Assembly: GCA_951406725.2 (NCBI GenBank) | Contig: OX597820.1 | Span: forward strand, 50,158,001 to 50,222,000 | Origin: Octopus vulgaris | Taxonomy: Eukaryota | DNA: 64,000 nucleotides | Reading direction: 5' to 3' | In this document: piece after piece, positions 141 to 63,437 of the stretch | Layout: every line of letters begins with the position of its first letter | How positions within the stretch are numbered: the first letter of the stretch is position 1 | Notes under the pieces: model-generated | The model's input: only the letters and a program-made list of their open reading frames with translations | The model's database searches: none | What the model was told of the DNA's origin: nothing | Made by a program: the position numbers and the translations under genes

Positions 141-331
141 ATAATCCAATATACTGGTTCAATTCTATGTCTAACTGAGATTTTATCGTACCAAATGCTA
201 AATACTACGAAATAAATTTGTTGTTTGGATTTTTTCTGTTGCTGTAACAGTGTTGAATAAAAAAAATGTTTCAGTTTCTGTCAAATTTGGTGTACTGATG
301 TAGTTTTGTATGCTAATTATGAGAATGAAAA

Positions 332-563
332 AGGCGGTGAGCTGGCAGAAACGTTAGCACGCCGGGCGAAATGCTTTGCGGTATTTCTTCTGCCGCTGCG
401 TCCTGCGTTCAAATTCCGCTGAGGTCGACTTTGTCTTTCATCCTTTCTGGATCGAGTAAATAAGTACCAGTTACGCACTGGGGTCGATATAATCGACTTA
501 ATCCGTTTGTCTGTCCTTGTTTGTCCTCTCTGTGTTTAGCCCCTTGTGGGTAGTAAAGAAATA
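332..563 (+). mobile_element. tRNA-derived SINE, family A, with Tx1-like 3' tail
   Basis: Head ggcggtgagctggcagaaacgttagc, B-box-like gttcaaattcc, body gaggtcgactttg.ctttcatcc, tail tagccccttgtgggtagtaaagaaata; many copies in the window. Confidence 0.85.
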
Positions 564-569
564 GGTAAT

Positions 570-735
570 TCGTCTGTCTTTACGTTCTGAGTTCAAATTC
601 CGCCGAGCTCGACTTTGCCTTTCATCATTTCGGGGTCGATAAATTAAGTACCAGTTGCGTACTGGAGTCAATCTAATCGAATGGCCCTCTCTCCCAAAAT
701 TTTGGGCCTTGTGTCTAAAGTAGAAAAGAATTATG
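570..735 (+). mobile_element. SINE family A, 5'-truncated, alternative tail
   Basis: ttacgttctgagttcaaattccgccgag...aagtaccagttgcgtactgg, ending gccttgtgtctaaagtagaaaagaatt. Confidence 0.75.
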
Positions 736-1670: not shown

Positions 1671-1779
1671 ACAGATGTATTGCTACAACTCAAAAGAATA
1701 CATACAACATAATACAAAGTAAAAGTTGGTGATTTTTCAGCATCCCAAAAGATGAACATTTTGGGGGCTACAAATATGG

Positions 1780-1922
1780 ATTTCAAATTTTGGTTCTAGG
1801 CCAGCAATTTAGGAGAAGTGTAAGTCACTTACATCGATCCAAGTATTCAACAGGTACTTATTTTATCAACCCCGAAAGTATGAAATGCAAGTCGATCTCG
1901 GAGACATTTGAACGCAGAACCC
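1780..1922 (-). mobile_element. SINE family A, degenerate
   Basis: Reverse complement of the family A body (ggtacttattttatcaaccccgaaag...atttgaac). Confidence 0.6.
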
Positions 1923-5098: not shown

Positions 5099-6164
5099 GA
5101 GAAAGAGAAAAAGATAACAAGGAAAATACGAAGCATACATTAACTAGAACTATATTTCATCTTAATGAAATAATTTCTGGGAGTATGAAATTTATTGGTT
5201 TCTTCAAGAGATACTTTTATTTCTCTATTTATGTTTCGTATGCATGTCCTACTCACCCTCCCTCATTCCTAGCTTATGTGCTTCTTTTACTAATAATGCA
5301 TTCTAACGCAGACACGAAGCCATTCGCACACATTATGTGGAGAGACATAGATGATTAAATCGACCTCAGCTTTTCATCGATACTTATTCAATCGACCTAC
5401 GAAGGACGAGAGCCAAATCGACCTTAAATGGCATATGAATTGAGAAATCTACAAAAGGTCAAATTCGCATTTTATTCTTAGAGGGTCGATAAATTAAATA
5501 ACACTTGTTATCTTTGCTGTTTTGCCGAAGGCCTATGATTAAAGAGTTCTATCTGTTACCATCCCGTATTTACTTTTCAGATAAAACAAGCACACACAAA
5601 CCCACACATACACACATACACACAAAACACACATATATGACTAAATTCTGAAATAGAGTGAGATTGGAGAGGGATTATTAGTTAGTATAAGTCAAGGAGT
5701 GTGGTTTGATGTATTCTTTTCTCTCAACTTCAAAATATGTGTGGTCTCGTGCCAAAACTGGTAATTATCATTCTTTGTGATATAGGTATGTAGAATCAAC
5801 AAAATGAATTAAAGCCATGTAAGTCATACTCTCATGCATTAGAACAACGAAGCCTGCAATATTATGCACAAGACAATGCTATTCTACATAGGTGCAATGT
5901 ACATTATACACTGATGGCACGTATATAGCGGCAATGTATACATAATGGCAATATATAGTGCCACGTGCACTGAAGTATAGACACGAGAAAGAGTATCGTA
6001 GATTAGAGACACATACATTATAGTATTGTAATTTAGAGCCAAGCATACGCTGGAGATCCGTACATTGTCGCAGAATTTGTATTATAAGCAAAAGATAGTA
6101 ATCATCTACACCAGAAGCACATATATTGTTCTCCTGCACACCAGAGCTATGTAATAATGATAAT

Positions 6165-6383
6165 TGTTACAAATTTTGGCACAAAGTGAGCAATTTCGGG
6201 GGAGGAGGTAAGTCGATCACATTGACCTCAGTGTTCAACTGGTACTTAGTTTATCGAGACTGAAAGGATGAAAGGCAATGTCGTCTCGGCGCAATTTGAC
6301 CTCAGAACATAGTGTTTTGAACGGTCGGAATGCTGCTAAGCGTTTTGCACGGTGTGCTAACGATTCAGCCAGCTCGCCGCCTT
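6165..6383 (-). mobile_element. SINE family A
   Basis: Reverse-complement copy ending ccagctcgccgcctt. Confidence 0.75.
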
Positions 6384-6509: not shown

Positions 6510-6790
6510 TGGGGCATTTTCGTCCAAGTCGCTTATCATCTGGCGACACAAAATTCAGATGTGCATCTAAGATGGTATTCCAATAGCCTACTAGTATTGA
6601 AAACAGGACACTCCAAAGAAAACCTCCAGGTGCCTGAAGAAATTTGACCACTGTCACAACTTTTCACGTCCAGGACTTCCAATTTACAGTCTACGTCAAG
6701 GAAGATCGATGTCATCTCAAGGATCAGGCCGCTTCGAAACATCGTCTTCCTATCCCTTTCCCAGTAAGAGTAGGAGATGTAAAGATCTTA
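6510..6790 (-). mobile_element. Decayed Tx1/L1-clade AP endonuclease fragment
   Basis: Frameshifted minus-strand peptide FRSGLILEMTSIFLDVDCKLEVLDV...FFRHLEVF...ILVGYWNTILDAHL, matching the APE 'D..GR.V.LDV' and 'LVGDWN..LD' motifs. Confidence 0.55.
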
Positions 6791-10090: not shown

Positions 10091-10504
10091 CAGGAACTGA
10101 TATGGTAAGCATCCAGGTTCCGACGATCCAACAATGCTACCAATTTATTGTCTTGGACTGGAATTATTTTCATCGTAGCCGAGAAGAGAAAATGCAAAAT
10201 AAACATTAGAGGGTTCAAAACTCAAAACTTAACACTCTACGTAACATTCTAAATATTCTAACTATTTCTCGCTTATAGAATTGCCGACAAAATGTGAATA
10301 CCAGTATGAAAGGAGGAGGACACAATCTCTTTAAGTTCGTTCTGAAAGATTGATATTAGCCATTAAAAAAAAAAGAAGCAAACAAAGCGCTTGTTAATTT
10401 TTTATAGTGTCGAATACTATAAAACGCCAACATTTTTCATCTCAAGCTGCAACTTACTGACACTGTTAAACTGTATCGAGTCTCATTTTGATGAAAAGTA
10501 TTGC

Positions 10505-10720
10505 TAACAAATTTTGGCACAAGGCCAACTATTTTTTGGGAAGAGTAAGTTGATTACATCAACTCCAGTGCTCGACTAGTGTTTATTTTGTCTACCCCGA
10601 AAGAATGAAAAGCTAAGTCGATATTTGAACTCAGAACGTAAATACTAACGAAATACCGCTAACCATTTTATCTAGAGGCATTTTGCTCGGCTGCTAACAA
10701 TTCTGGCTGCTCACTGCTTT
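10505..10720 (-). mobile_element. SINE family A, degenerate
   Basis: ttttggcacaaggcc...ccccgaaagaatgaaa...tttgaactcagaacgtaa. Confidence 0.6.
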
Positions 10721-12065: not shown

Positions 12066-12965
12066 GTTAAAGAGAATAAAAGAAAAGAATATGAAAAATG
12101 AATTTCGAAGATAGGAAAAACGGAGAAACTAGAAAAATACGTAACACTAAGAAGAAAAAATACAAAAAGAAAAAAAACAAAGACAAGAAACTAAACAACA
12201 TAGTTTGTGCGAAGAGATTTCTCTGATATGCTATGAGGCAGAACATTAAACATAGTGGAGTTCTAAGTAGAATATATCTACGATGAATTACTTTGATGAC
12301 AGCTCTGTAAAGACAGCCTGTTCCTGTTACATGTGTAGTAAGATCGACAAAATTATTCTTCATAAATTCAGTGTCTAAACATTACTGATTTGTGGAGTTA
12401 CATGGAGCAGTGGTTCTCACACTCAGTATATATCTGGCTCTCAATCTAGTCCACGAAGCTCAACTCGTTACCTTCTGTTACCTAGCGAGAAAGATGAAAC
12501 GATTTTTGAAGATTTCAAGAATTTTGTATAATTTTTCCTTCTGTCATAAAAATGGAAATACTTATAGCAATTTTCCTAAAGTTGTCATTGCTACGTTTTC
12601 AACTTCATAACAGCTTCGTTCTTATTGCTCCTTTGTATTTTAATTGTCATTTCGGTCTCTGATTTTTATTGGCTGTCTTCCTGTATGTGCTGACATGCGA
12701 GCTATTGTTTTAGAAAGTTGCGGGTTTGAGAGACATACCGCTGAAAGGAAGATAAGAAGGAGACATGTCAGCATATGTGAATGATGTAATTACAGTGATG
12801 TCTGGTACTGCAGCAATTGAAGGAGCCAGTACTTTTTTTAGAGGAATAAGTGGCAGTGACAGGGACAACCATTACTTCTGATAAGTGCGTAGAATTGAAA
12901 CTTGGCACCTAGTTTAGCTGCTGAGAGTCCAGCGCCCATCAGACCGCACAACAAACGGAACAAAC

Positions 12966-13301
12966 TTATGAGCAAGCTAAGCACTCTTTCTTAGAAATAG
13001 CTCGAGGTGAATCTATACCTAAAAGTTTGGTAAGAGGTGGCAAACGCGTGCATCGCCTTTCCACTATATTATTGCTGAAATGTCGTCTAGTGCTCCAGTT
13101 CGGCCTTTTTGCATCTTTTGGAAGGGACGAATTGCACAAATTGCGTATTGTATTTCGAGCTAATAATCTCTGTGTAAAATGCCTGGTATGATGTCCCCGG
13201 TGATGCCTAGGTATGCACTGAGGCTGTGGTATCTGAAATATCTGTAGCGAATCTAGATCAGCATCCAGATGCCGTTTGCTAGGAGAATTTTCAATAGAAT
13301 C
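12966..13301 (-). CDS. Candidate terminal coding exon of an unidentified host gene (111 aa)
   Basis: T-rich acceptor ...ttgtttcag| then a phase-0 open frame DSIENSPSKRHLDADLDSL...RLPPLTKLLGIDSPRAISKKECLACS* in non-repetitive sequence; no recognisable domain. Confidence 0.3.
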   Translation of the reverse strand, partial: DSIENSPSKRHLDADLDSLQIFQIPQPQCIPRHHRGHHTRHFTQRLLARNTIRNLCNSSLPKDAKRPNWSTRRHFSNNIVERRCTRLPPLTKLLGIDSPRAISKKECLACS

Positions 13302-13454: not shown

Positions 13455-13496
13455 AAGAAGAAGAAGAAGAAGAAGAAGAAGAAGAAGAAGAAGAAT

Positions 13497-13709
13497 GGTT
13501 TCAAATGTTTCCATAAGAGCAGCAATTTTGAGGGAGTTGATGAGTCGATTACATCGACCCAAGAGTTTAACTGGTAATTATTTCCTCAACCTCGAAAGGA
13601 TGAAAGGTAAAGTCGACCTCGGTGGTATTTGAACTCAGAACGTCCCAACGGGTGAAATACCGCTAAGCATTTCCTCCGCGTGCTAAAGATTCTGCCAGCT
13701 CGCCACCTT
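13497..13709 (-). mobile_element. SINE family A
   Basis: gaaaggatgaaaggtaaagtcgacctcgg..atttgaactcagaacg...ccagctcgccacc. Confidence 0.75.
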
Positions 13710-15253: not shown

Positions 15254-16854
15254 CAACAACACCAACAACAACAACAATGATAATAATAATAATGCTGATA
15301 ATAATAATTCATAGGGTGTTTTATTGGTAGAATCGGTAAAATAAAAGACAAAATGATCTATCGTATTTAAATAATTCCATTTGTATTGACGAAGGTGAGT
15401 TTGCCTATCATCCTTCCGAAACGCATTAGTGTTGGTGTACATTCGAGCAATTGTACACGTAATCCAATAAATGCAATCTTGTTCCTAATTTGGAAGTACT
15501 TATTGTGACTCATTTATAAAGGAAGCGGATGTTGTCAGGTCTAGTTGAATAGCAGGTGAATTGTATTACAGTGTTTAGTTACGTCACTTAACGGGTCTCA
15601 TTATTCAGTTCCACAAAGATTTTTGTTGTTGCTATAGTTGTTGCTATTATTATTTGTATTAGTGACATATTGAATATCACAGGAGATATATTCTCGAACT
15701 TATAACACGTATAAAAGGTCGTAACCAAAAGCAAGTCATCATCAGAGATTCGTATCTATCACATAAAGGAACAATTCCGGAGAAAATCCATAATTCTCTC
15801 GCAAGCTCTAAATATATTGAATGTGTATGTATTAGAATATAACAAAAATAGTTCCCCATCACTTCCGACGATAAATATTCCGTTGCTTGATCCATTGAAC
15901 TGTCAGGTCATTGAATAGCCATGTAAGTGACTAACTATTACATACCACTGAATCGCATACTATTTAACGTAATTCTAGGAGTGATACTATATAGTAAAAC
16001 TTGTTCTATACATTAAAAGTATAAACAGACGAGCTTTCTTGCACGCTAACTACTACAATATGCGATTCAAGAGTCTCCGTGGAGTTGTGGAGGTTAGAGC
16101 AATGGCAAAAAAGCCTAACCCATGATATAATACCGTGTGGACGGAGTCGGGATTTTATGAATTTAAAGCGAATTTCTTACCCATTTGTCCTGGTTCCCTT
16201 CACACACCACGGATTTTTGTCAGTGAACAGGTCGCGGTCTTAAAGCGACGAAAATATTTTGACAAATTAAACTTAAATGTTGAAGTGAATCGAACGGCTT
16301 TTGTGTGTTTCTTAAATGGCTTACAAACACCTTCCACGCTGCAATTGTATATATATATCTTTATTTATATAAAACTGAGAATGTGTGTCTGTGTGTCTGT
16401 CTGTCAGTGTGTTTCCCTAAAACTTGAGAACTACACAACCAATTTCATTCAAATTTTACACATGTCTTACTTAGGGTCCATGTAGTTTCATGGGCAAAAA
16501 AATGTTCAACTTCTTGCCTAGAGCAAGCCCATAGCAATATCATATCTTCTCCACTATTTCAGTATTACGTGTTAAAAGTTAAACAAAAACATTTCTCTAT
16601 TTTATGTCAGATACTTTCACTTTAACAATAAAAATAATAATAACAATTGAATTATATATAGTAAGTAATAATTAAAATCAAACTAAAGTATAATATATAA
16701 TCGTAACATAACAGAAGTAAAAATAGCAATTGGTATAAAATTGCATCAATGACTTGAACTTGAATAAGTGGTTTCACATGAATGAGAATAAATTAAAAAT
16801 AAAATTAGCGTGCAGAAATGGAATAGTCCAGATGGATAATAAAAAATTAAATTA

Positions 16855-16901
16855 AAGAAAAGACTATTGTCTATAAAGTATACAATGTAGAGAAAAAAGG
16901 T
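16855..16901 (+). pseudogene. Left half of an older ORF1 relative (KEKTIVYKVYNVEKKG)
   Basis: Colinear with DKRTIVYRVCANERKR of the young ORF1. Confidence 0.55.
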
Positions 16902-16918
16902 CGTTTTTTTTCGGCTCC

Positions 16919-18652
16919 GTGTTTTTTTTTCGGCTCCTGAAAATTCGGTAAAAAAGAACAAAAAAGGTTGTTGTTGTTGTGGAAATTCTGAACGGCGTTG
17001 ACGCGGTTTCGCGTTTCGCTCGTTCAGCGCGTTACACTTTTTCTGTTTTGGCGGCCGTTTTCGGTCTGTCAGACAGAAGGAAATGGACTATGAGTCTCTA
17101 ACAGACTTGTCCACGACGGATGAGGAACTGGAACAGGCAATTGCAGTGAAGCTGATGGAGGAAAAGGCTGGAGTTTTCGAGTCTTTATCGGACTTGTCTA
17201 CGTCTGAGGAGGAGCTAGAAATGGCAGTGAGGAAAATGGATCAGAAGCTGGGTTATACCTATGCCGGTGTAACCAGGAGGGCGGAGGAGAAAGGGGTCGA
17301 CATGGCCAAGTTGCCAAGTTACCAGAAATACATGGAAAAGGAAAGCGGTGAGGTGGAACTATCACCGACACCCAGGAGAAAAGAATGGTATGACAAGAGG
17401 ACCATTGTTTACAGGGTGTGCGCAAACGAAAGGAAGAGGGTAGAAGTTGTATCCATGGAATGGATAGAGGAAGCCCTGCGAAGAACTGAGGAGGAAATAA
17501 ATTTTCTGACTCGAGGATCCAAGTACGGGACCGTAGTTGTGCACTTTAAAAGTGAATCTGCAGCGAGGAAGATGGCAGCGAAGGCGGTGAAGTCGGAAAA
17601 GGTAACACTGTTACCTACGTATTTAAACAGGAGGATTACACGAATAAGGGTGGAGGGAGTGCCACCAAACGTGGAGGCAGAATGGATTGTGGCGGCTGTG
17701 ATCAGCGGCCACGAGGACGAAGTGGATATTCTCCATGCCTCGGTTAAGTCCGAGGGCTGGAGAGGCGTAACAGTGGAGCTGAACGTACAGGCAGAGACCG
17801 AGGTACTGGTGGACCTGACGGAAAGCATCAGACTGGGAGAAGTGATCATGAGAGTGTGGGTGGAGGGCAGGGCTCCACGTTGTTACAAGTGTGGCCTGAG
17901 GGGTCACATAAGAGCCTTCTGCCCTCCCCAGGGAAAGAAATGGATCCCGAACCAGAGAGAGAGAAGCAGAAACCAGAGGAGAAGGAAACAGAGGAAGAGA
18001 ATACACAGAAATGGAAGGAAGCTGGAAGTAAGAGGAAGAGAAGAATATGTGGAAAAAAAGAAAATAATATGGAACTCCAATCTACCCCAAAACCTCCCAC
18101 ATCCTCTGAGTCCCACCCTATCCATGCAGACATTGAACCCACCCGCTCCCCCCCAACAAGAAAACAAAAAAAAAAAAAGAATACACACACACAAGAGATT
18201 GAAATCGAACCCAGGCCGTACATTTGTACTATGACTGAACAGAGGGAAGTTAAAAGTCTAATGGAAGAGTATAAACGGTATGATGTTGGAGAGACTAGGT
18301 ATGCTGTGATTGAAAAAAAGAACATAGGTGAGTTTATGGGGAGGTGTGAAAGGGAGAATTGGGAGGTGAAAGATATAAGAATGAGCGATGAATTCGTGGA
18401 AAATATGAATGAGTATTTCGGAGTAAGAATGGATATGGAATTTATTCGTATTGGCAAAGAACATTCAAGTGACTATGAAAAACAAAGGACAGGTAAGTGA
18501 TGCTGACGGACGGGGCCGTTGGTATCGCTTTCATTTTATCATTTTTTCGTTTAACACTTCATGTTCATATAGTTTAATTATAATGTTCTATGTCCCCATG
18601 TTTTGTGATGTCCGGCACTCTTCGTAGCCCCTTAGTGGGTAATAAAGAAATA
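16919..18652 (+). mobile_element. ORF1-only non-LTR retroelement, copy 1 (HAL1-like)
   Basis: About 1.73-kb unit: T-rich 5' end, one gag-like ORF, 3' tail tagccccttagtgggtAATAAAgaaata; near-identical to 18653-20383. Confidence 0.8.
17083..18500 (+). CDS. LINE ORF1/gag-like nucleic-acid-binding protein, about 472 aa, one frameshift near 17925
   Basis: RRM-like region plus CX2CX4HX4C knuckle CYKCGLRGHIRAFC (17881-17922); a poly-C run one C shorter than in copy 2 splits it into track ORFs 17083-18234 and 17856-18500. Confidence 0.8.
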
Positions 18653-20383
18653 CGTTTTTTTTCGGCTCCTGAAATTCGGTAAAAAAGAACAAAAAGCGTT
18701 GTTGTTGTTGTGGAAATTCTGAACGGCGTTGACGCGGTTTCGCGTTTCGCTCGTTCAGCGCGTTACACTTTTTCTGTTTTGGCGGCCGTTCTCGGTCTGT
18801 CAGACAGAAGGAAATGGACTATGAGTCTCTAACAGACTTGTCCACGACAGATGAGGAACTGGAACAGGCAATTGCAATGAAGCTGATGGAAGAAAAGGCT
18901 GGAATTTTCGAGTCTTTATCAGACCTGCCTACGTCTGAGAAAGAGCTAGAAATGGCAGCAAGGAATTTGGAAGAGAAGCTGGGTTATACCTATGCCGGTG
19001 TAACCAAGAAGGCGGAAGAGAAAGGGGTAGACATGGCCAAGTTGCCAAGTTACCAGAAATACATGAAAAAGGAAAGCGGTGAGGTGGAACTATCACCGAC
19101 ACCCAGGAGAAAGGAATGGTATGATAAGAGGACCATTATTTACAGGGTGTTCGCAAACGAAAGGAAGAGGGTAGAAGTTGTAACCATGGAATGGATAGAG
19201 GAGGCCCTGCGAAGAACTGAGGAGGAAATAAATTTTCTGACTCGAGGATCCAAGTACGGTACCGTAGTTGTGCATTTCAAAACTGAGTCTGCAGCGAGGA
19301 AGATGGCGGCGAAGGCGGTGAAGTCAGAAAAGGTAACCCTATTACCTACGTATTTAAACAGGAGGATTACACGAATAAGGGTGGAGGGAGTGCCACCAAA
19401 CGTGGAGGCAGAATGGATTGTGGCGGCTGTGATCAGCGGCCACGAGGACGAAGTGGATATTCTCCATGCCTCGGTTAAGTCCGAGGGCTGGAGAGGCGTA
19501 ACGGTGGAGCTGAACGTACAGGCAGAGACCGAGGTACTGGTGGACCTGACGGAAAGCATCAGACTGGGAGACGTGATCATGAGAGTGTGGGTGGAGGGCA
19601 GGGCTCCACGTTGTTACAAGTGTGGCCTGAGGGGTCACATAAGAGCCTTCTGCCCTCCCCCAGGGAAAGAAATGGATTCCGAACCAGAGAGAGAGAAGCA
19701 GAAACCAGAGGAGAAGGAAACAGAGGAAGAGAATACACAGAAATGGAAGGAAGCTGGAAGTAAGAGGAAGAGAAGAATACGTGGAAAAAAAGAAAATAAT
19801 ATGGAACTCCAATCTACCCCAAAACCACCCACACCCTCTGAGTCCCACCCTATCCATGCAGACATTGAACCCACCCGCTCCCCCCCAACAAGAAAACAAA
19901 AGAAAAAAAGAATACACACACACAAGAGATTGAAATCGAACCCAGGCCGTACATTTGTACTATGACTGAACAGAAAGAAGTTAAAAGTCTAATGGAAGAG
20001 TATAAATGGTATGATGTTGGAGAGACTAGGTATGCTGTGATTGAAAAGAAGAACATAGGTGAGTTTATGGGGAGGTGTGAAAGGGAGAATTGGGAGGTGA
20101 AAGATATAAGAATGAGCGATGAATTCGTGGAAAATATGGATGAGTATTTCGGAGTAAGAATGGATATGGAATTTATTCGTATTGACAAAGAACATTCAAG
20201 TGACTATGAAAAACAAAGGACAGGTAAGTGATGCTGACGGACGGGGCCGTTGGTATCGCTTTCATTTTATCATTTTTTTCGTTTAACAATTCATTTTCAT
20301 AAAGTTTAATTATAATGTTCTATGTCCCCATGTTTTGTTATGTCCGCCATTCTTCGTAGCCCCTTAGTGGGTAATAAAGAAAT
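18653..20383 (+). mobile_element. ORF1-only non-LTR retroelement, copy 2
   Basis: Direct repeat of copy 1 at 1731-bp offset, same 5' end and AATAAA tail. Confidence 0.8.
18814..20231 (+). CDS. LINE ORF1/gag-like protein, about 472 aa, one frameshift near 19905
   Basis: CCHC knuckle at 19612-19653; an A-rich run one base shorter than in copy 1 splits it into track ORFs 18814-19965 and 19962-20231. Confidence 0.8.
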
Positions 20384-20680
20384 CACATGGAGGAAAGCAC
20401 CTTCGAAAAGTGTCTTGGTGCGACTATGAAAGATATCTAATCAGAGGCGGTAAATTCGCCACAATAGAAGCAAGGTTCGAGTCAACGGAGCGTGCAAGGG
20501 AGTACTCGACTCGAACTTGCAAAGTGAAAATATTTTATTTTTACCTTTATATCTGGGACGTAGGACGTCCCGGATAAAAATTTAAAATGTTCCCCCCCCG
20601 GAAGTAGAGGTAGGCTTGATTGTAGCCACACTTCTATACACGAGGGAGGACAAAATACAATTGATCGAAATTACAAGAGA
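20384..20680 (+). pseudogene. Right half of the older, decayed ORF1 relative
   Basis: Frameshifted MEESTFEKCL..YLIRGGKFATIEARFESTERARE..LQSENILFLPLYLGRRTSRIKI*NVPPPEVEVGLIVA aligns to FLTRGSKYGTVVVHFKSESAARK..VKSEKVTLLPTYLNRRITRIRVEGVPPNVEAEWIVA. Confidence 0.7.
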
Positions 20681-20875
20681 CGGGCTAACAATTCCAGTCT
20701 GTTATATATTTTGAGTATTGTTATCACTAGCGATAACAAGATATAACTTTGTATTTTGTATTTCATGTGTAGATGTATATATATATATAGATGTACATGT
20801 AATATGTACACATATATAAACACATATATACATGCACTAGCACTATGACCCGGCAACGACGGGTCTGTAATGCTA

Positions 20876-20928
<53 letters not shown>

Positions 20929-28652: not shown

Positions 28653-28885
28653 GGCGGCGAGCTGGCAGAATCGTTAGCACGCCGGGCGAAATGCGTAGCC
28701 GTATTTCGTCCGCCGTTACGTTCTGAGTTCAAATTCCGCCGAGGTCGACTTTGCCTTTCATCCTTTTGGGTTCGATAAATAAAGTACCAGTTTCGCACTG
28801 GCGTCGATGTAATCGACATAATCCCTTTGTCTGTCCTTGTTTGTCCCTTCTATGTTTAGCCCCTTGTGGGAAGTAACGAAATATA
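28653..28885 (+). mobile_element. SINE family A, young, Tx1-like tail, with TSD
   Basis: Complete head to tail; tatatatataagattgtta duplicated at 28556-28574 and 28886-28904. Confidence 0.9.
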
Positions 28886-32688: not shown

Positions 32689-34500
32689 CTAGGCTCAAAT
32701 TATAGGCAGACCTATAAACGACAAAAACTATAGTATAAAACTATTATTGTAAAACTATAGGCAGAACTATCGACAAGCTATAGGCAAAACTATAGGCTAC
32801 AATTCAGCCTATAGTTTTTGCCTCTAGCTTCAGCTTATATTTTGCCAATATTTTTTGCAGCTATAGTTTTGCTGCCTAGAGTTTTTGCCTATAGTTATGT
32901 ATTTAAGTGAACTTTTCTACCCTTTAGATTTTAGCCTATAGTTTTGCCTAACTTCAGCCTATAGATTTTCTATAGTTTTAGCCTATTGTTTTTTGTCGTC
33001 TGCCTATAGTTTTTGTCGCCTATAGATTTGCCTATAGGTTTGGCATATAGTTTTGCCTATATTTCTGCCAATAGTTTGCCTATAGTTTTTTTGAAAAACT
33101 ATAGGCTGAAATTACTATAGGCGAAAATCTAACAGCAAACTATAGGCAAAGTATGGGCATGAGAACTATAGCCAAAACTGACAAAAAATATAAGCTATGA
33201 GGCCAAAATATAGGCAAAACTATAGGCTAAATTCAAATACATAATTATAGGCAATAACGATAGGCAGCAAAACTATAGCCGCAAAAAATATTGGCAGGCT
33301 GAAACTAGAGGCAAAACTATAGGCTGAAAGTATAGGCAAATTATACCTGGCCTCAAATTTTGTCGCTTATAGATTTTTGTCTATAATTTGAGCCTATATC
33401 TTTTGTCGACTATGAAATAGTTTTAGACTATAAAAATAGTTTTAGACTATAGTTTTATATAGGTCTGCCGCTTTGCTTATATTTATCGCGTATTATTTTG
33501 TCTATAGTTTTGTCGCCTATAGTTTGCTATAATTTTGTCTATACTTTTTGTAGCCTATAGTACCAGCCCGTTCATTATAGTCCTGCCTATCATTTTAGCA
33601 TATATCTTTGCCTATAGTCCTCGTCTAAATTTGCCTAAAGTTTTTTCACCTATTGCTTTTGTCGCTACTGCCCTTAGTTTTAGCCTATAGTTTTGCATAT
33701 GTTTTGCCTATAGTTTTATCTATAGTTTTTTGCCTATATTAATTAGACTAGTCTGCTTATAGGTTCTGTCGCCTATACTTTGCCTATAGATTTAGCCTAT
33801 AGTTTTTGTCTTATCGTAATTTCAGCCTATTGTTAACCAATAGTTTTTTCACCTAAATTTTACCTTTAGCTTTAGACTATAATTTTGCCTATAGTACATT
33901 CTGCCTAGCCTGTAGTTTGTCTTTTGTCTAGAAATTTCAGCTTTTATCGCCTATACTTTTTCAAATTTTTTTCGCATAACTCTTTGCCTATAGCTTCGGT
34001 CTATAGTTTTGCCTATAGTTTATCAAACGTGAACTTTTCTTCCCTATAGATTTTAGCCTATAGTTTGCCTATACGGTTTCACGTATAGCTTTGGCCTATA
34101 ATTCTTGCCTATGGTTGGCTTTAGTTATTCATATATTATTTATCGAAAGTGAACTTTTCTTCCCTATAGATTTTAGCCTATAGTTTGCCTATACGGTTTC
34201 ACGTATAGCTTCAGCCTATAATACTTGCCTATGGTTGGCTTTACTTATTCATATATTAGTTATCAAAAGTGAACTTTTCTTCCTTATAGATTTTAGCCTA
34301 TAGTTTTGCCTATATTTTATCTTCTTGTTTATATATTTTAGCTTATAGTTTTGCCTATAGCTTTTAGCGTATAGTTTTTGCGATTTTTAGCCAATTTTTT
34401 ATCAAATATATTGTTTTATGATATAATATATATATTTATCAACTATTTTAGCGTATCTTTTTTATGGATTTTCGCCTATATTTTTATCGCCTTATATTTT
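32689..34500. repeat. Degenerate (TTTTGCCTATAG)n-type satellite with fold-back inversions and a 120-bp higher-order repeat
   Basis: Dense gcctatag/ctataggc units switching strand; 120-bp tandem units at 34021-34140, 34141-34260 and 34261-34310 (partial). Confidence 0.85.
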
Positions 34501-34510
34501 CTTTCCTTAT

Positions 34511-35468
34511 ATTTTTGCAGATGATTCCAAGCTACTGAAGGTCATAAATGAGGCGAGTGACCGGACATGCCTTCAGTCAGATCTACTGGCTGTTATCCAA
34601 TGGGCAGAAAAAAACAATATGCTGCTGAACGAGGATAAATTTGAGTTAATCCACTTTGGAAAAGAGGATGCCCTGAAACTCCCATACTCCCTTCCTTCAG
34701 GTGAAACTCTCGCGGCGTCCAACAACATCAGAGACTTGGGAGTAATTGTGGACAACAACATAAGCTGGGCCACTCATATAAACACCAAAGTTGACATGGC
34801 CCGCAGAATGTGTTCCTGGATTCTCAGAACTTTCCAGTCGAGAGATATCCACACCATTATCCTTCTCTTCTCCACTTTTGCCCGACCCCACCTTGTTGTC
34901 CACTGTGGTCTCCCCACACAATAAAAGGTATCATAAAAGTTGAAGCACCTCAAAGGGCAATCACAAAAAAGATAGATGGCATGACAGGCCTCGGCTATTG
35001 GGGTCGACTAGAAAAGCTAAAACTTTATTCCCTCCAACGTGGTCGTGAGCGCTACATCATCTGCATGATGTGGAAAATATTCCATCAGCATTGCCCAAAT
35101 GATGTTGGCATCACCTTTAAGGTACATCCAAGGCTTGGGCCCCGTGCCATCCGCCCAAAACAAAAATCGCACTCTCATCTCATAACAACAATACGGCACT
35201 ATTATTTCACCTCAATTGGCCCCGCTCTCTTTAACATTACACCAAAACACATTAAAACAGAAACTGACCCTATAGGGTTCAAGAAGTCTCTGGACAGATT
35301 CCTTCAAGAAATAATCCCGGATAAACCCCCTACACCCAGATATGTCTCTGTAAACAATAACTCTCTACTTGAGTGCCCAAATTCTGACTTGAAAGACTTC
35401 ACCAGGTGGTGCTATTAAGTTAGACATGGCCTGGGCCAATAATGGCCGAAACCTATCAAAGTATCAAA

Positions 35469-35470
<2 letters not shown>
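34511..35470 (+). mobile_element. 5'-truncated CR1-type LINE (RT C-terminal half to 3' end)
   Basis: IFADDSKLLKVI...LQSDL..VIQWAEKNNMLLNEDKFELIHFG...RDLGVIVD...LKLYSLQRGRERY; tail (tatcaaag)2. Confidence 0.9.
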
Positions 35471-37567: not shown

Positions 37568-37987
37568 AAAGTCCCTCCTAGCGTGTGGTACCTATGAATA
37601 ATAGTACCCTCTATATAATATAAATAAGTATTTTCAAAGTTGAAAAAATTTACAGATTTTTTCTCTTACGAGGTTTTTCACGCTAACTACTGATAATTTC
37701 TTATAAAGATTTTATACTTATTTTTAAATGTGTGTGCGTATGTGTGTATGTGTGTGTGTGTGTGCATGCGTGTATATGTATGTGTGTAAATATATATATA
37801 TATATAACAGAATGTCACAAACTGTGGTATACATATAGGGAGAGCATCTCATGTATATGCACGGTGCTAAAACACTTAGAAGTGTTTCATTGGCAGTCAA
37901 AACTCCTGAAACATCAGCGGTGAATTGATAAATCCAACGTTCTACAGATTTGCACGTTCTCTTTAGGAAATACTTGCTCTTGATGTA

Positions 37988-38200
37988 AGGTGGTGATCTT
38001 GTAGAATCGTTAACACGTTGTGAAAATGCTTTACTGTATTTCCTCCGACTTTACGTTCTGGGTTCAAATTGTGGCGAGATTGACTTCGCCTTTCTACCTT
38101 TCGAGGTTAATAAAATAAATACCAATTGAGCACAGGAGTCGATGTAAACGAGTTTCCCACTCCATGGTATTACCTGGCCTTGTACTAATATTTGAAACGG
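37988..38200 (+). mobile_element. SINE family A, degenerate
   Basis: aggtggtgatcttgtagaatcgttaacac...ttacgttctgggttcaaatt. Confidence 0.6.
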
Positions 38201-39966
38201 ATATACTTACTACTGATAATAAACAAAATCGCCGAAATCTATTATTATTCTCTTCATAACACTGTTTTATTTCTGTAGCAAAAACTTTGAATTGTAAACT
38301 ATGATGTGCCATGCTGTAAAAAGACCTGATTTACAGTTTCAACCCCTAGTTGGATAGCATAGTGGAATAATGAATAATATATAAGAGGTCATAATTTTGT
38401 CGATTTTGTGATGTTGCTTAACACGTCTAGATTATATATTTAAGGTTTTTATTCAGAAGCTTTAGATATGTAATTATTTGCTTCAGAAAATGAATGTCGT
38501 CTAACTATGCAATTATTCTTAGAAGTGTTCTCTGGTAAGTTCGTTCGCTCCTATCGTTGGATGATTCTAAAACCATTGTAAATATTCATATTGGTATCCA
38601 AGGAGAGAAAGAGAAAGAAAGAGAGAGAAAGAACAAGAGAAATAGATAGGAAGAGTTGGAGAAAGAGAAGGTGAGAGAGAGCGAGAGAGTGAAAGAGAGA
38701 GATGAACACAAAATTCAACTCAATTGTGAATCCAAATTCAAATTTATATTCGCTTCTATAACATCTAAGCAGATTCCTTATAACTGATTCCATCTTTGTT
38801 TCTTAAAAGTGTGCTGAATGCATTATGTAAAAATGAAAATATTGGAATATCATATGCGGGGCATCATTTTCGGAATTCTTAAAAACATAGAATAGTATAT
38901 CTACGAATCAAGCAAATAAGAGCCATTAAAATAGGTAAGTGGCCTCGACGTAAATATTAATCCCGCAAATTTGAGTTTGTAGTCATCGGAGTTTATATGT
39001 GAGACTAGCAGTATAAAAATGTTGTTAAATTTGTAGATTAACACTCGCACGATTTTCACTAAGAAAAAAAAAAGTTTTTTTTTTTTGCGTGGAAACAACT
39101 ACTCTGGCATCCTAATATGCTACAAAACCCATTTTGTGATCGGTGAAACGGAGTGTGGTGTGGTGGAAGCCTCGGAAATTGTACCCATTTATATTGTGTA
39201 ATTCACTGACAAACTGTTACCTACCTCTTTGTTGTTAAATAAATGCATTCTCAAAAAACACTTTTTTACTCGGCGTAAAATAAAAACAAAACTCTTTCGC
39301 ACCCAAAGTAATGTGTGTGAGAGAGGGGGGAGAAAGATGAACGATTTGAAATATATAAATGATTTAAAATAAATATATTGTAATTGTTGTGTGATAAAGT
39401 ATATATACTATGATTATAAAATATAGTGTCTTTCAAAAACTTCCTAAATTTTAACACTATATCTCGTGTTTAAGAAAAAAAAATATTTTACATTTTATTT
39501 TTTATGAACGTCGTCACTTACTCTCTCCCTCTCTCTATCTCTCACTTCGTCTTTCCCTTTTTTTGTTTAGACGCTGTAAAACTCTCTGCCTGTCTTCCAC
39601 TTTCCTTTACCTTGATTTTTTTTTGTTAGACGCTCTCACCCACTCTTGCTTACTCATACTTTTTCAATACTATTTTTGTAAGACGTTGCGAAACACTATA
39701 CATCAACACACACATACATCAATACACAACTTCTCTCTCTCCTTCACACACACACTTTCGCTTGGCTATGTCTAGAAGGGACTTAACTCATGTTATTAAC
39801 CTTCAAAACAAATAAAAACTATGGCTGAAAATAGATTTTCACCGCTATCCGCGAATGCCTCGGGAAAAAAATAAGTTGACAAAACCCAGATATGATGTTG
39901 ACGAATGTCCTCCTAAAATTGGAGCGACATGCGTGCTAATTTGTGGACGGGCATAAATTACAATCA

Positions 39967-44055: not shown

Positions 44056-45509
44056 ATACGAAGTGTATTTATCAAATGTGTACACAATGTTGTGTCGAGC
44101 GAACCTGACTTATGTTCCAGTTAAGTGATTCTAATGGATTGATGGATCCTGATTTAACTAGTATGACTCGTGTAATTTTCTTGCCGTTTTAGATACAGTT
44201 CAGTAGCTGCTAAAATTTCCTTTCAACGCTTTAAAATATTCCTTTGATAATATTGTTCGTTCCGTTAAAGGAAGCCTTTCATTTTCCCGACTTCTCTTTG
44301 ATCCTTTATTTTAAGTATCCTATTACTGTCTTTATATCATATTTTTCTCTAATTTCTAGCTTATTCGTAATGCTTCATAGGTCTTGTTTTCACGATTCGT
44401 TTTAAGATTAAGGAAAATTTACTCAGATACATTTCCATACCTTTAATAATCCTTACATTCATATTCCAACATGAAAACGTTATTTCCAATTTCCGTTTAT
44501 ATTCAACACAAGTTTTTTTTTGTTGAATGTTTAAGAAATACGTCACGATTTTTATTCCCCACAAAAAAGGAAAATAAATAATAAAAAAACAGGAAAAAGA
44601 AGAATTATGCATATTTTGTGAAAACATCTTTAAAAATGTTAAAGTTGAACAAACGCTGTATGAGAAAGTCTTTAAACAGTAGTATTGATAATTTCCAAAG
44701 CTTGCATATGTCCACATGTATCTATGAGTGGTTTTATGGAAGCGGTTATACCAGTTACAAACGGAATGATGAACCACAATCTTATATTTTGATAGCAAGG
44801 CTATTATAATGCATTTCATTCTTTTACATCTGTTAGGCACATCAATGTAATAATTCGGTATAGCTATGTCTTGCTCGAATAGCTTAGGAGTTCGCTTCGC
44901 AGTCACACAAAACGCGCAAGTATCAGAACCAGACTTCGGGCGAGTAAAACTGGGGAGACCGAAATTGTGCAAAATGCTATCATAATGAAATGCACCCCAC
45001 TCTGTCGGAGGATAACACGAAAGATACACATCTACGGAATGTTTACACATCTGTGGTATATCCAACCCTAATACGCCAATTCAGTGATCTGAGTATTTCA
45101 TTTGATGGATTAGACTTATCAATCAAAGGTAGTGGCCTATATTTAAAGTTACAAAGAATTGCTCATTACCAAATTATAATATACGCAAAAGAGCATGCCT
45201 TTATTTAAAGGTTATTAGTGTAGAGGTGCATGTAGAACGGTTTCGTCACATTAATACAATACCAAATATACTCGGTAAGGATCGTTGCGAGACATTATAA
45301 TACAATATGGCGAATTGTTTCAGGAAATTCACAACACAGGCGATATTTGTCATCTACCATATAGGGGTTGTGATGGTTGACTGGACCTGTCTTGTATTAT
45401 GAATGGTGTTTCTTTTGTTGTTCTATTCAGATTGGATTTGCTTCTTCCTCAGACAAGAGCTGGTACTATTTAAAAGAATTCTATATGTGCCATTCAGTGA
45501 CTAGAAATA

Positions 45510-45722
45510 TTGGTTTCAAATTTTGACACAAAGCCAGCAGTATCGGGCGAGGGAGTAAGTCGATTACATCGATCCTAGTGTTCAACTGGTTCTTATTTTA
45601 TGGACACGGAATGGATGAAAGGCAAAGTCGACATCGGTAGAATTTGAACTCAGAACGTTAAGACGAACGAAATACTGCTAAGTGTTTTACCCTGTGTGCT
45701 AACGATTCTACTATCTCACCGT
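45510..45722 (-). mobile_element. SINE family A
   Basis: gatgaaaggcaaagtcgac..atttgaactcagaacg...tgctaacgattct. Confidence 0.7.
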
Positions 45723-56239: not shown

Positions 56240-57000
56240 TGTGTACAGGACACCAAAAAGACGTCGAACACATAGAGAGACGAAAAACATAGACACAAAC
56301 CAAGGAACAGGACAAGCAAAAAAAGGGATACAAGACAATTAGCACAACGAAAAATCCCCTTCTTCAGTCGCTAAGGTTTCATCTACTCTACGTTTCGAAG
56401 GATAAAAGCGAGACGTATCTTCGAAGAAACTTCCTTCCTGCGAAAAGCAAATCAATTAAAATTCTGAGATCTTTTCGCAGAGGGGTAAAAAATGGTAAAA
56501 AAAAAAGGAAGACAGTAACGACAGTACAAACATATAAACAGTACAAAAATATATATAAACAGTGGAAAAATAAATATATAACAGTGAGAGACAGGACAAG
56601 GAGAACAAGATGAGAAGGGCTGTTTACGCCAGACGAAAAAAGTATTGCAAACGCTGGATTATAGTGGACGACGAGAGAGCAGGAATGTCGACCAGTGGCC
56701 TTAGAAGGCGGGCGAGAAAAGACAGGATAGCAGTTACGACGGAAGTATCGTCGCAGATGGACGACGGGAATGGGGGAGGAGGAGCACGAGGAAGAGAGAG
56801 AAGAAGGGGAATGGTGCGAGGAGACCATGAAGAATGGTGAGGGGGAGAGAGAGAATGAAGAATGAGAGAGAGAGGAAGAGACAAGTTAAGTGAGGGAAAA
56901 AAAGACGAAAAAGGGAATGGGATAGAAAGAAAGAAAGATGCAGAGTCGCGTGAGAGTTAATATCAAGGCTAACTTGATAAACAGAACAATCTTACTTAAT
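56240..57000 (-). mobile_element. Possible Penelope-like remnant
   Basis: Minus-strand SLVVHYNPAF-like peptide and ctgaagaag...cgaaacgt pieces; heavily decayed. Confidence 0.3.
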
Positions 57001-60732: not shown

Positions 60733-61490
<758 letters not shown>

Positions 61491-61503
61491 TTATCTATCT
61501 ATG

Positions 61504-63171: not shown

Positions 63172-63173
63172 AA

Positions 63174-63391
63174 CGCGGCGAGCTGGCACAGAAACGTTAG
63201 CATGCCGGGCGAAACGCGTACCCGTATTTCGTCTGTCGTTACGTTCTAGGTTCAAATTCCGCCGAGGTCGACTTTGCCTTTCATCCTTTCATGGGCGTAC
63301 CAGTTACGCACTGGGGTCGATGTAATCTACTTAATTCGTTTGTCTGTCCTTATTTGTCCCCGCTGTGTTTAGCCCCTTGTGGGTAGTAAAG

Positions 63392-63395
<4 letters not shown>
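63174..63395 (+). mobile_element. SINE family A with Tx1-like tail
   Basis: gcggcgagctggca...ggttcaaattccgccgaggtcgac...tagccccttgtgggtagtaaagaaata, inserted in (TA)n. Confidence 0.85.

Positions 63396-63437
<42 letters not shown>

What the first reader, a model, noticed from the sequence alone, without database searches (positions are those of the whole stretch)
18600..18652. Same 3' tail on the ORF1-only element, a SINE family and a Tx1-like LINE
Seen: element tail tagccccttagtgggtaataaagaaata (ends 18652; also ends 20383). SINE A tail ccttgtttgtcctctctgtgtttagccccttgtgggtagtaaagaaata (ends 563, about 28882, 63395). LINE tail ccttgtaacttgtcccatctgtgtgcagccctgtgtggccaataaagaaac (ends 61490). 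All contain a small gccc...gg(g/c) stem-loop before (A)ATAAAGAAA. Known: SINEs share 3' tails with their partner LINEs in stringent L2/CR1/RTE pairs; this is less often reported for L1/Tx1. Inference: one Tx1-like RT mobilises both a tRNA-SINE and a protein-coding ORF1-only element through a common stem-loop.
Basis: partly seen in the sequence, partly recalled or inferred. Interest (0 to 1): 0.7.

Follow-up and report, generated by a model that had tools for sequence, protein, structure and literature searches.

The report
Octopus half-LINE and SINE share tail
In an octopus genome, a jumping element that codes only for an RNA-binding protein, a short SINE repeat and an L1-type LINE end in related 25-45-base tails with no poly(A), so the first two likely borrow the copying enzyme of this LINE lineage, a tail-sharing partnership rarely reported for L1-type elements.

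Summary
Observation confirmed. The six named sites share a tail and no other place in the window does. The genome is Octopus. The 1.73-kb element codes a two-RRM + CCHC protein and carries no ORF2 remnant. Its two tandem copies show dN/dS 0.23 (p 2e-5), and run contigs show many near-identical copies, so it is likely a mobile ORF1-only family. The LINE stub is 73% identical to the end of an APE-RT-zf ORF2 closest to human L1; Tx1 versus L1 was not tested.

The SINE shares its hairpin with the element and its upstream tail with the LINE. Element-LINE similarity vanishes once the terminal 10 bases are removed (p about 0.75). The 3-4-bp stem has no compensatory change. A sister LINE family is the likelier partner than this very LINE.

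Extra finding: the tandem sits inside a high-copy Helitron-like element that carries a decayed ORF1 of the same family. Verdict: new variant of known kinds (HAL1/HeT-A-like element; SINE-LINE tail pair); interest 0.5.

The parts
16900..18652 (+). ORF1-only element, copy 1 (5' end GTCGTTTT..., ORF1, 152-nt 3' UTR, tail)
   Evidence: 96.5% identical to copy 2 over 1731 nt; 5' junction with the host repeat from empty-site joints
17083..18500 (+). ORF1-like gene of copy 1 (RRM-RRM-CCHC), one base short in a C run near 17926
   Evidence: AlphaFold model mean pLDDT 91.7, tandem-RRM fold matches
18606..18652 (+). 3' tail of copy 1: hairpin GCCC-CTTAGT-GGGT, then AATAAAGAAAT, no poly(A)
18653..20383 (+). 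ORF1-only element, copy 2, joined head-to-tail to copy 1
   Evidence: run contigs match it with 0-1 other letters over 583-993 nt
18814..20231 (+). ORF1-like gene of copy 2, one base short in an A run near 19902
   Evidence: contigs with one more A there are present in 4 of 4 runs
20337..20383 (+). 3' tail of copy 2
16358..16899 (+). 5' part of the high-copy host repeat (Helitron-like: starts TC after an A); ends in ORF1-like codons (seen by eye only)
   Evidence: depth and joints 16899->20384 in 4 of 4 runs; ends; translation
20384..20876 (+). 3' part of the host repeat: decayed ORF1 fragment of the same family (20425-20681), 6-bp hairpin (20847-20865) 11 nt before CTAG, followed by T
   Evidence: profile hits iE 4e-7 and 1e-15
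329..563 (+). SINE with tail type A (hairpin GCCC-CTTGT-GGGT)
28653..28883 (+). SINE with tail type A
   Evidence: A-box-like motif at 28663
63172..63396 (+). SINE with tail type A, inside a (TA)n tract
60844..61490 (+). 5'-truncated L1/Tx1-type LINE: ORF2 C-terminus (stop ends 61031), 459-nt 3' UTR, tail with GCC-CTGTGT-GGC hairpin, inside a (TATC)n tract

Best explanation
An octopus element that codes only an ORF1-like RNA-binding protein, a SINE subfamily and an L1-clade LINE end in related poly(A)-free tails, and the element and SINE are likely copied in trans by the reverse transcriptase of a sister family of that LINE, which is predicted to recognise a small CU-n-GU hairpin about 12 nt from the RNA end. 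Shown: shared tails; no ORF2 between ORF1 stop and tail; ORF1 under purifying selection between the two copies; many copies in the species; no poly(A) and no target-site duplication outside microsatellites; the same SINE head and body also occurs with a different tail. Inferred: (1) the element arose by internal deletion of ORF2 from an L1/Tx1 LINE and kept its promoter, ORF1 and tail; (2) the SINE took its tail from the same lineage by template switch; (3) ORF2 binds the hairpin and starts reverse transcription at a fixed point just after AAAGAAA; (4) ORF1 is kept because it packages its own RNA; (5) the tandem arose from two different master copies, by a second insertion or a template jump, inside a Helitron-like repeat, with loss of about 7 target bases.
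For: Tail statistics and uniqueness. ORF1 fold RRM-RRM-CCHC; 347 relatives at E<=1e-3, with named ones from Octopus and Argonauta. No ORF2 remnant in the element's last 480 nt (best E 0.063, opposite strand). Contigs of two other studies run from ORF1 through the stop into the tail (X1 20171-20458; X4 19619-20413). dN/dS 0.23, Fisher p 2e-5, over 278 codons. Each copy is broken at a different homopolymer, and contigs with the extra A at 19902 occur in 4 of 4 runs. In run X16 one element contig has depth 4653 against 18-30 for diverged-relative contigs, suggesting more than 100 near-identical copies (rough). LINE stub 73% identical to P0153, whose cluster-mate P0154 has APE+RT+zf-RVT and scores 185 bits to human L1 ORF2p against 72 to R2. 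3 of 10 SINE copies carry tail A and 7 a different tail on the same body.
Against: Element-LINE similarity is not significant without the last 10 nt. No compensatory change in the hairpin; the LINE breaks one pair in the shared register. In 60- and 120-nt context the hairpin is weak in the LINE (pair probability <=0.11) and in SINE 63395 (<=0.22), though strong in copy 1 (0.87-0.99). No full-length LINE with the element/SINE tail was obtained. One X1 contig leaves ORF1 at 20200 into 255 or more unlike letters, and 927 loose ends were not shown, so an ORF2-bearing form is not excluded. dN/dS in the C-terminal parts is not significant (0.40 and 0.74). The ORF1-to-LINE link rests on one gene model (P0002).
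Confidence: 0.55

Rival explanations
1. One reading: the very LINE family seen at 60844-61490 supplies the reverse transcriptase for both the SINE and the ORF1-only element through one stem-loop.
For: SINE-LINE similarity extends about 45 nt and survives removal of the end and the hairpin. All loops begin CU and end GU. P0002 joins this LINE's ORF2 end to an ORF1 of the element's family.
Against: Element-LINE p about 0.75 without the last 10 nt. The hairpin register and loop differ. P0002's ORF1 is only 29% identical to the element's and does not group with it in the tree. O. vulgaris has 80 L1-Tx1 families (PMC13282606 supplement), so many sister partners are available.
Confidence: 0.2
2. The tail is shared by descent only. 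It is kept as a 3'-end formation or stability signal (AATAAA), and the reverse transcriptase is relaxed and needs no hairpin.
For: AATAAA is in the element and LINE tails; folding is no better than shuffles; no covariation. Crocodilian SINEU is thought to be moved by Tx1-Mar with no shared tail found (PMC4494074).
Against: None of the six insertions has a poly(A) tract, and all end within 1-2 nt of the same position. The SINE has AGTAAA yet keeps the hairpin. The SINE's other tail type also forms a 4-bp stem around CTTGT (23 of 28 cells paired against 6-15 when slid; register set by eye).
Confidence: 0.18
3. The ORF1 element is not itself retrotransposed now; it spread as cargo of the Helitron-like repeat or by local duplication.
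For: The host-to-element 5' junction occurs at depth 214.5 in X16 (several copies' worth) and in X1. The host already carries a captured ORF1 fragment.
Against: That junction's depth is about one-twentieth of the element's (214.5 against 4653 in X16). The two tandem copies differ with dN/dS 0.23, unlike a neutral local duplicate. One X1 contig joins the tail to a different sequence.
Confidence: 0.07

Closest known systems
ORF1-present non-autonomous LINEs: HAL1 (L1 clade), HeT-A (Jockey), Ag-Sponge (CR1) (PMC5786205 passages; PMC5753468 passages)
   Same: Keeps the 5' end, ORF1 and 3' end of a LINE and lacks ORF2; depends on an autonomous partner
   Different: ORF1 is RRM-RRM-CCHC (Type I), not the Transposase_22 type of mammalian L1 ORF1 (PMC5203782 passages); no poly(A); shares a sequence tail with a SINE; found in a mollusc. 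The listing read names no Tx1-derived case.
SINE/LINE tail pairs (Ohshima 2012/2013; PMC3747384 Table 1; PMC3472496 passages)
   Same: About 45 nt of shared 3' end with a predicted hairpin; SINE body with swappable tails
   Different: That survey found only 3 SINEs with L1-clade tails (ZmSINE2, ZmSINE3, SINEX-3_CR), all green plants or algae; no Tx1 and no octopus entry. The maize case has compensatory changes; this one has none yet.
SINEU and Tx1-Mar of crocodilians (PMC4494074, parts 1-3 of 5 and passages)
   Same: SINE thought to be moved by Tx1; tandem insertions; insertion into a DNA transposon; target-site loss as well as duplication
   Different: SINEU ends in poly(A), no LINE sharing its 3' end was found, and the link was made by target preference. 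Here the link is a shared tail without poly(A).
Stringent L2 LINEs ZfL2-1/ZfL2-2 (PMC4176376 passages)
   Same: Works like: ORF2 is predicted to bind a 3' stem-loop whose loop sets specificity
   Different: Different clade; there the hairpin was tested by mutation, here it is only predicted

Membership tests
ORF1-only non-autonomous LINE (HAL1/HeT-A/Ag-Sponge type) | Encodes a LINE ORF1-type protein | tested here: met
   RRM-RRM fold with CCHC knuckle; zf-CCHC in 18 of 42 aligned relatives at E<=0.1; this is the Type I ORF1 layout (PMC5203782). No Pfam ORF1 family passes its cut-off.
ORF1-only non-autonomous LINE (HAL1/HeT-A/Ag-Sponge type) | No ORF2 between ORF1 and the 3' end | tested here: met
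   152-nt UTR; no ORF2 hit; X1 and X4 contigs bridge stop and tail
ORF1-only non-autonomous LINE (HAL1/HeT-A/Ag-Sponge type) | Multi-copy dispersed family | tested here: inconclusive
   High depth and diverged relatives indicate many copies, but their places could not be mapped; no genome held
ORF1-only non-autonomous LINE (HAL1/HeT-A/Ag-Sponge type) | Mobilised in trans by a named autonomous LINE | not testable with these tools
   needs a genome census or an assay
L1 clade in the broad sense (L1/Tx1), for the LINE | APE endonuclease + RT + C-terminal zinc finger, RT closest to L1 | tested here: met
   Via close relative P0154; the window holds only the last ~60 aa
Tx1 clade, for the LINE | RT phylogeny groups it with Tx1/Keno/Kibi/Koshi | not testable with these tools
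   no Tx1 reference sequences could be fetched (searches found no loci)
Tx1 clade, for the LINE | Target preference for repeats or microsatellites (common, not universal) | tested here: inconclusive
   LINE inside (TATC)n, one SINE inside (TA)n, element inside a Helitron-like repeat; too few sites
Stringent SINE/LINE tail pair | 3' sequence shared beyond chance | tested here: met
   SINE-LINE p 0.0005-0.002 without the terminal 10 nt; element-SINE p 0.006-0.009; element-LINE not met on this test
Stringent SINE/LINE tail pair | Hairpin supported by compensatory changes | tested here: inconclusive
   0 of 3 hairpin pairs have a both-sides change among six tails; six closely related tails give little power
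Stringent SINE/LINE tail pair | Tail needed for retrotransposition | not testable with these tools
   bench assay
tRNA-derived SINE (Nin/Deu type) | tRNA-derived head with A and B boxes | tested here: inconclusive
   A-box-like motif found, strict B-box pattern not found; ARAGORN and Rfam found nothing
tRNA-derived SINE (Nin/Deu type) | Nin/Deu central domain | not tested
   label recalled from memory; no reference sequence available; tRNA-Deu SINEs are abundant in octopus (PMC8967140)
Helitron, for the host repeat | 5' TC, 3' CTRR with a hairpin shortly before it, A|T target (hallmarks recalled) | tested here: met
   TC at 16358 after A; CTAG ending 20876 before T; 6-bp hairpin 11 nt upstream. 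One copy only; no autonomous partner examined.

The most novel reading that the evidence does not exclude
Octopus carries an L1/Tx1 lineage with fully stringent, poly(A)-independent 3'-end recognition, the first such animal case in the papers searched. It feeds two kinds of parasite at once, a protein-coding ORF1-only family and a SINE, and the ORF1-only family inserts head-to-tail and by preference into ORF1-bearing repeats, here a Helitron that then amplifies and expresses it.
Probability: 0.25. Interest if true: 0.7.

Novelty: new variant of a known kind. Interest (0 to 1): 0.5.

Why it matters
Ohshima proposed that L1-clade LINEs were once stringent and relaxed to poly(A) recognition in mammals and plants, but the tail-sharing L1 cases he listed are only green plants and algae. 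A young, multi-copy animal L1/Tx1 system with three naturally varied tails and a known full ORF2 relative would make that idea directly testable by tail swaps. It would also add an L1/Tx1-type ORF1-only element to the short list (HAL1, HeT-A, Ag-Sponge) and name the likely engine of one octopus SINE subfamily. Each ingredient is of a known kind, and Repbase or Dfam, which could not be searched, may already hold these families.

Tried and rejected
No genome was held, so no census of copies and no full-length LINE. Tail patterns found nothing in viral contigs or metagenome contigs. Locus searches with P0154 and P0085 found no relatives; the ORF1 alignment was too divergent to search with. ARAGORN and Rfam gave 0 hits. 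The Atlas gave no usable hit for the ORF2 stub. For ORF1 it gave CCHC clusters at 0.92, commonest in molluscs and arthropods, and ZCCHC3-like clusters at 0.89, a lead only. P0153 had no PDB sequence match. L1 ORF1p did not appear among the listed fold matches, which does not exclude kinship. Four look-ups in earlier findings were empty. One search put the second SINE tail one column out of register; its pairing counts are void and one search replaces them. The 6-versus-0.02 count was not used as a p-value, as the pattern came from the tails. Plain post-insertion duplication of the tandem was rejected on dN/dS. Other ORF2 remnants (12366-13292, 6514-6742) keep no tail. Bao and Jurka 2010 was not held.

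Full report
Setting. No genome was held. The named relatives of the element's protein come from Octopus sinensis, O. vulgaris, O. bimaculoides and Argonauta, so the window is taken to be Octopus.

Observation. A pattern built from them hits exactly those six sites, and an independent scan with the three family tails found no seventh. Against 2000 dinucleotide shuffles all 7 cross-family pairs are significant over the last 60 nt (p 0.0005-0.0025; pairs chosen after the fact, p uncorrected). The sharing is mosaic. Without the terminal ten bases, SINE-LINE (p 0.0005-0.002) and element-SINE (p 0.006-0.009) remain, while element-LINE does not (p 0.74-0.77). Upstream of the hairpin only SINE-LINE remains. 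Among 212 A[AG]TAAA sites, the best non-self matches to the element tail and to the LINE tail are the SINE tails; for SINE 563 an unrelated GT-rich site ties with the element. None of the six insertions has a poly(A) tract, all end within 1-2 nt of the same point, and no target-site duplication was found outside microsatellite flanks.

The hairpin. The element has GCCC-CTTAGT-GGGT, the SINE GCCC-CTTGT-GGGT and the LINE GCC-CTGTGT-GGC. RNAalifold predicts the 3-bp stem with no both-sides change, and the LINE breaks one pair in the shared register. Whole-tail folding is not better than shuffles (z -1.84 to +0.99). Pair probabilities are high in copy 1 in all three contexts (0.84-0.99) but fall to 0.11 or less in the LINE and 0.22 or less in SINE 63395 in longer contexts. 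The stem is plausible, not shown.

The element. Two copies lie head-to-tail (16900-18652, 18653-20383; 96.5% identical). Each has one long ORF broken by a single missing base at a different homopolymer. Contigs with the extra A at 19902 occur in 4 of 4 runs, nearly all the depth in X1 but about a third in X11 and X16; an intact protein of about 472 aa is inferred. The model of the core (pLDDT 91.7) matches tandem-RRM proteins (73 Foldseek hits at E<=0.001; best Z 9.3 over 81 residues, rmsd 2.5) and is followed by a CCHC knuckle. This is the Type I ORF1 layout (PMC5203782, passages). There are 347 relatives at E<=0.001. No ORF2 remnant lies between stop and tail, and contigs from two other studies bridge stop and tail. 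The copies differ by 20 synonymous and 17 non-synonymous changes over 278 codons (dN/dS 0.23, p 2e-5); the two C-terminal segments are not significant. I infer that the copies descend from two masters whose ORF1 was under selection. Twenty of 24 listed runs hold the stretch or part of it, most of them only guessed to be RNA, so transcription is suggested but not shown. Depth of 4653 against 18-30 in X16 suggests more than 100 near-identical copies; the tool warns that depth is no copy number. Three loose ends show variant tails of related subfamilies; one X1 contig leaves ORF1 at 20200 into unlike sequence, and 927 loose ends were not shown.

The host. Both flanks belong to one very high-copy repeat. 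Joints 16899->20384 (the empty site) occur in 4 of 4 runs, in X11 with 7 letters between, so insertion likely removed about 7 bases. The repeat runs from 16358 to 20876, starts with TC, ends in a hairpin and CTAG, and sits between A and T; these are Helitron hallmarks as I recall them. It carries a decayed ORF1 of the element's family (iE 4e-7 and 1e-15). A host-to-element 5' junction without copy 1 occurs in 2 of 4 runs (X16 depth 214.5, X1 156.8). One X1 contig bridges the tail into the host; the X4 contig has only 30 letters beyond it, one short of the tool's bar.

The LINE. The stub's 59 residues hit P0002, and P0002's first 40 residues led to P0153, 73% identical to the stub. Its cluster-mate P0154 (1148 aa) has APE, RT and zf-RVT domains and scores 185 bits to human L1 ORF2p against 72 to R2. 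So it is L1 clade in the broad sense; Tx1 was not tested by phylogeny. P0002, an O. bimaculoides gene model, joins this ORF2 end to an ORF1 of the element's family (29% identity, E 9e-18). That suggests adjacent copies, but it is one model, and that ORF1 does not group with the element's (tree of 26 selected rows).

The SINE. Of 10 aligned copies, 3 carry tail A and 7 a different tail after the same body, as expected if tails are swapped with partners. The second tail also forms a 4-bp stem around CTTGT with an inverted stem (23 of 28 cells paired against 6-15 slid; register set by eye). A tRNA origin and a Nin/Deu body are recalled labels, not confirmed.

Mechanism. Best reading (0.55): a tail-recognising L1/Tx1 ORF2 of a sister family copies both the element and the SINE, starting at a fixed point without poly(A). 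Rivals: this very LINE does so (0.2); the tail is mere descent with relaxed recognition (0.18); Helitron carriage (0.07).

Known systems. ORF1-present non-autonomous LINEs are HeT-A, HAL1 and Ag-Sponge (PMC5786205, passages; PMC5753468, passages). Ohshima's survey lists only three SINEs with L1-clade tails, all plant or algal (PMC3747384, passages and Table 1; PMC3472496, passages). SINEU is linked to Tx1-Mar by target, with no shared tail found (PMC4494074, parts 1-3 of 5 and passages). Loop specificity is shown for ZfL2 (PMC4176376, passages). O. vulgaris has 80 L1-Tx1 families, 13 recently active (PMC13282606, part 1 of 3, passages and its one supplement); that supplement holds no sequences. 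PMC4758252, PMC5804259, PMC4824008, PMC8967140 and PMC3531059 were seen as passages only and did not describe this pairing. Ten searches showed no report of an octopus Tx1-tail SINE or ORF1-only element. The library lacks most subscription journals, Ohshima and Okada 1994, Repbase and Dfam, and the other papers' supplements were not read; any of these may already hold these families.

Verdict. Real, partly as interpreted; a new variant of known kinds; interest 0.5.

Noticed in passing
window 16358-16899 + 20384-20876 (+): High-copy Helitron-like repeat (about 1.04 kb empty) carrying a captured, decayed ORF1 fragment of the element's family; run contigs also show a variant lacking about 300 bp of that fragment (joint 16899->20684) and, in X1, another tail-bearing sequence joined at 20689.
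   Followed up: partly
window 564-719 (+), 1768-1920 (-), 6160-6383 (-), 10496-10670 (-), 13494-13709 (-), 37975-38204 (+), 45507-45721 (-): Same SINE head/body with a second tail whose hairpin has the same CTTGT loop but an inverted stem (TGGC/GCCA); homology with tail A unknown.
   Followed up: partly
window 18652-18659; run X1 loose end: An X1 contig joins the element's tail to a different sequence that also begins CGTTTT, hinting at head-to-tail joining between related families, as does gene model P0002.
   Followed up: no
window 12366-13292 (+) and 6514-6742 (-): Old, broken L1/Tx1-type ORF2 remnants (RT/C-terminal pieces out of order; endonuclease piece); no tail preserved.
   Followed up: partly
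window 34427-35470 (+): Broken RT remnant of another LINE (CR1/L2-like by recall; Pfam RVT_1 only E 0.096) with an unrelated 3' end.
   Followed up: no
window 563/564 and 61490-61503: Tail-bearing copies abut other retroelements: SINE 563 is followed directly by a truncated SINE, and the LINE is followed after about 12 nt by another SINE family. All six tails lie on the + strand.
   Followed up: no
protein P0121 (MetaClust): Gene model with an ORF1 fragment of this family between Helitron helicase-like and PIF1 domains, a second hint of an ORF1-Helitron association.
   Followed up: no
run X16 contig on 17335-17442: One diverged contig shows a dense run of A>G differences; in a DNA-type run this may be a copy retrotransposed from edited RNA, or just a diverged relative.
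   Followed up: no
window 56250-56930: GA-rich repeat-like stretch with a long stop-free frame on the minus strand; not identified.
   Followed up: no
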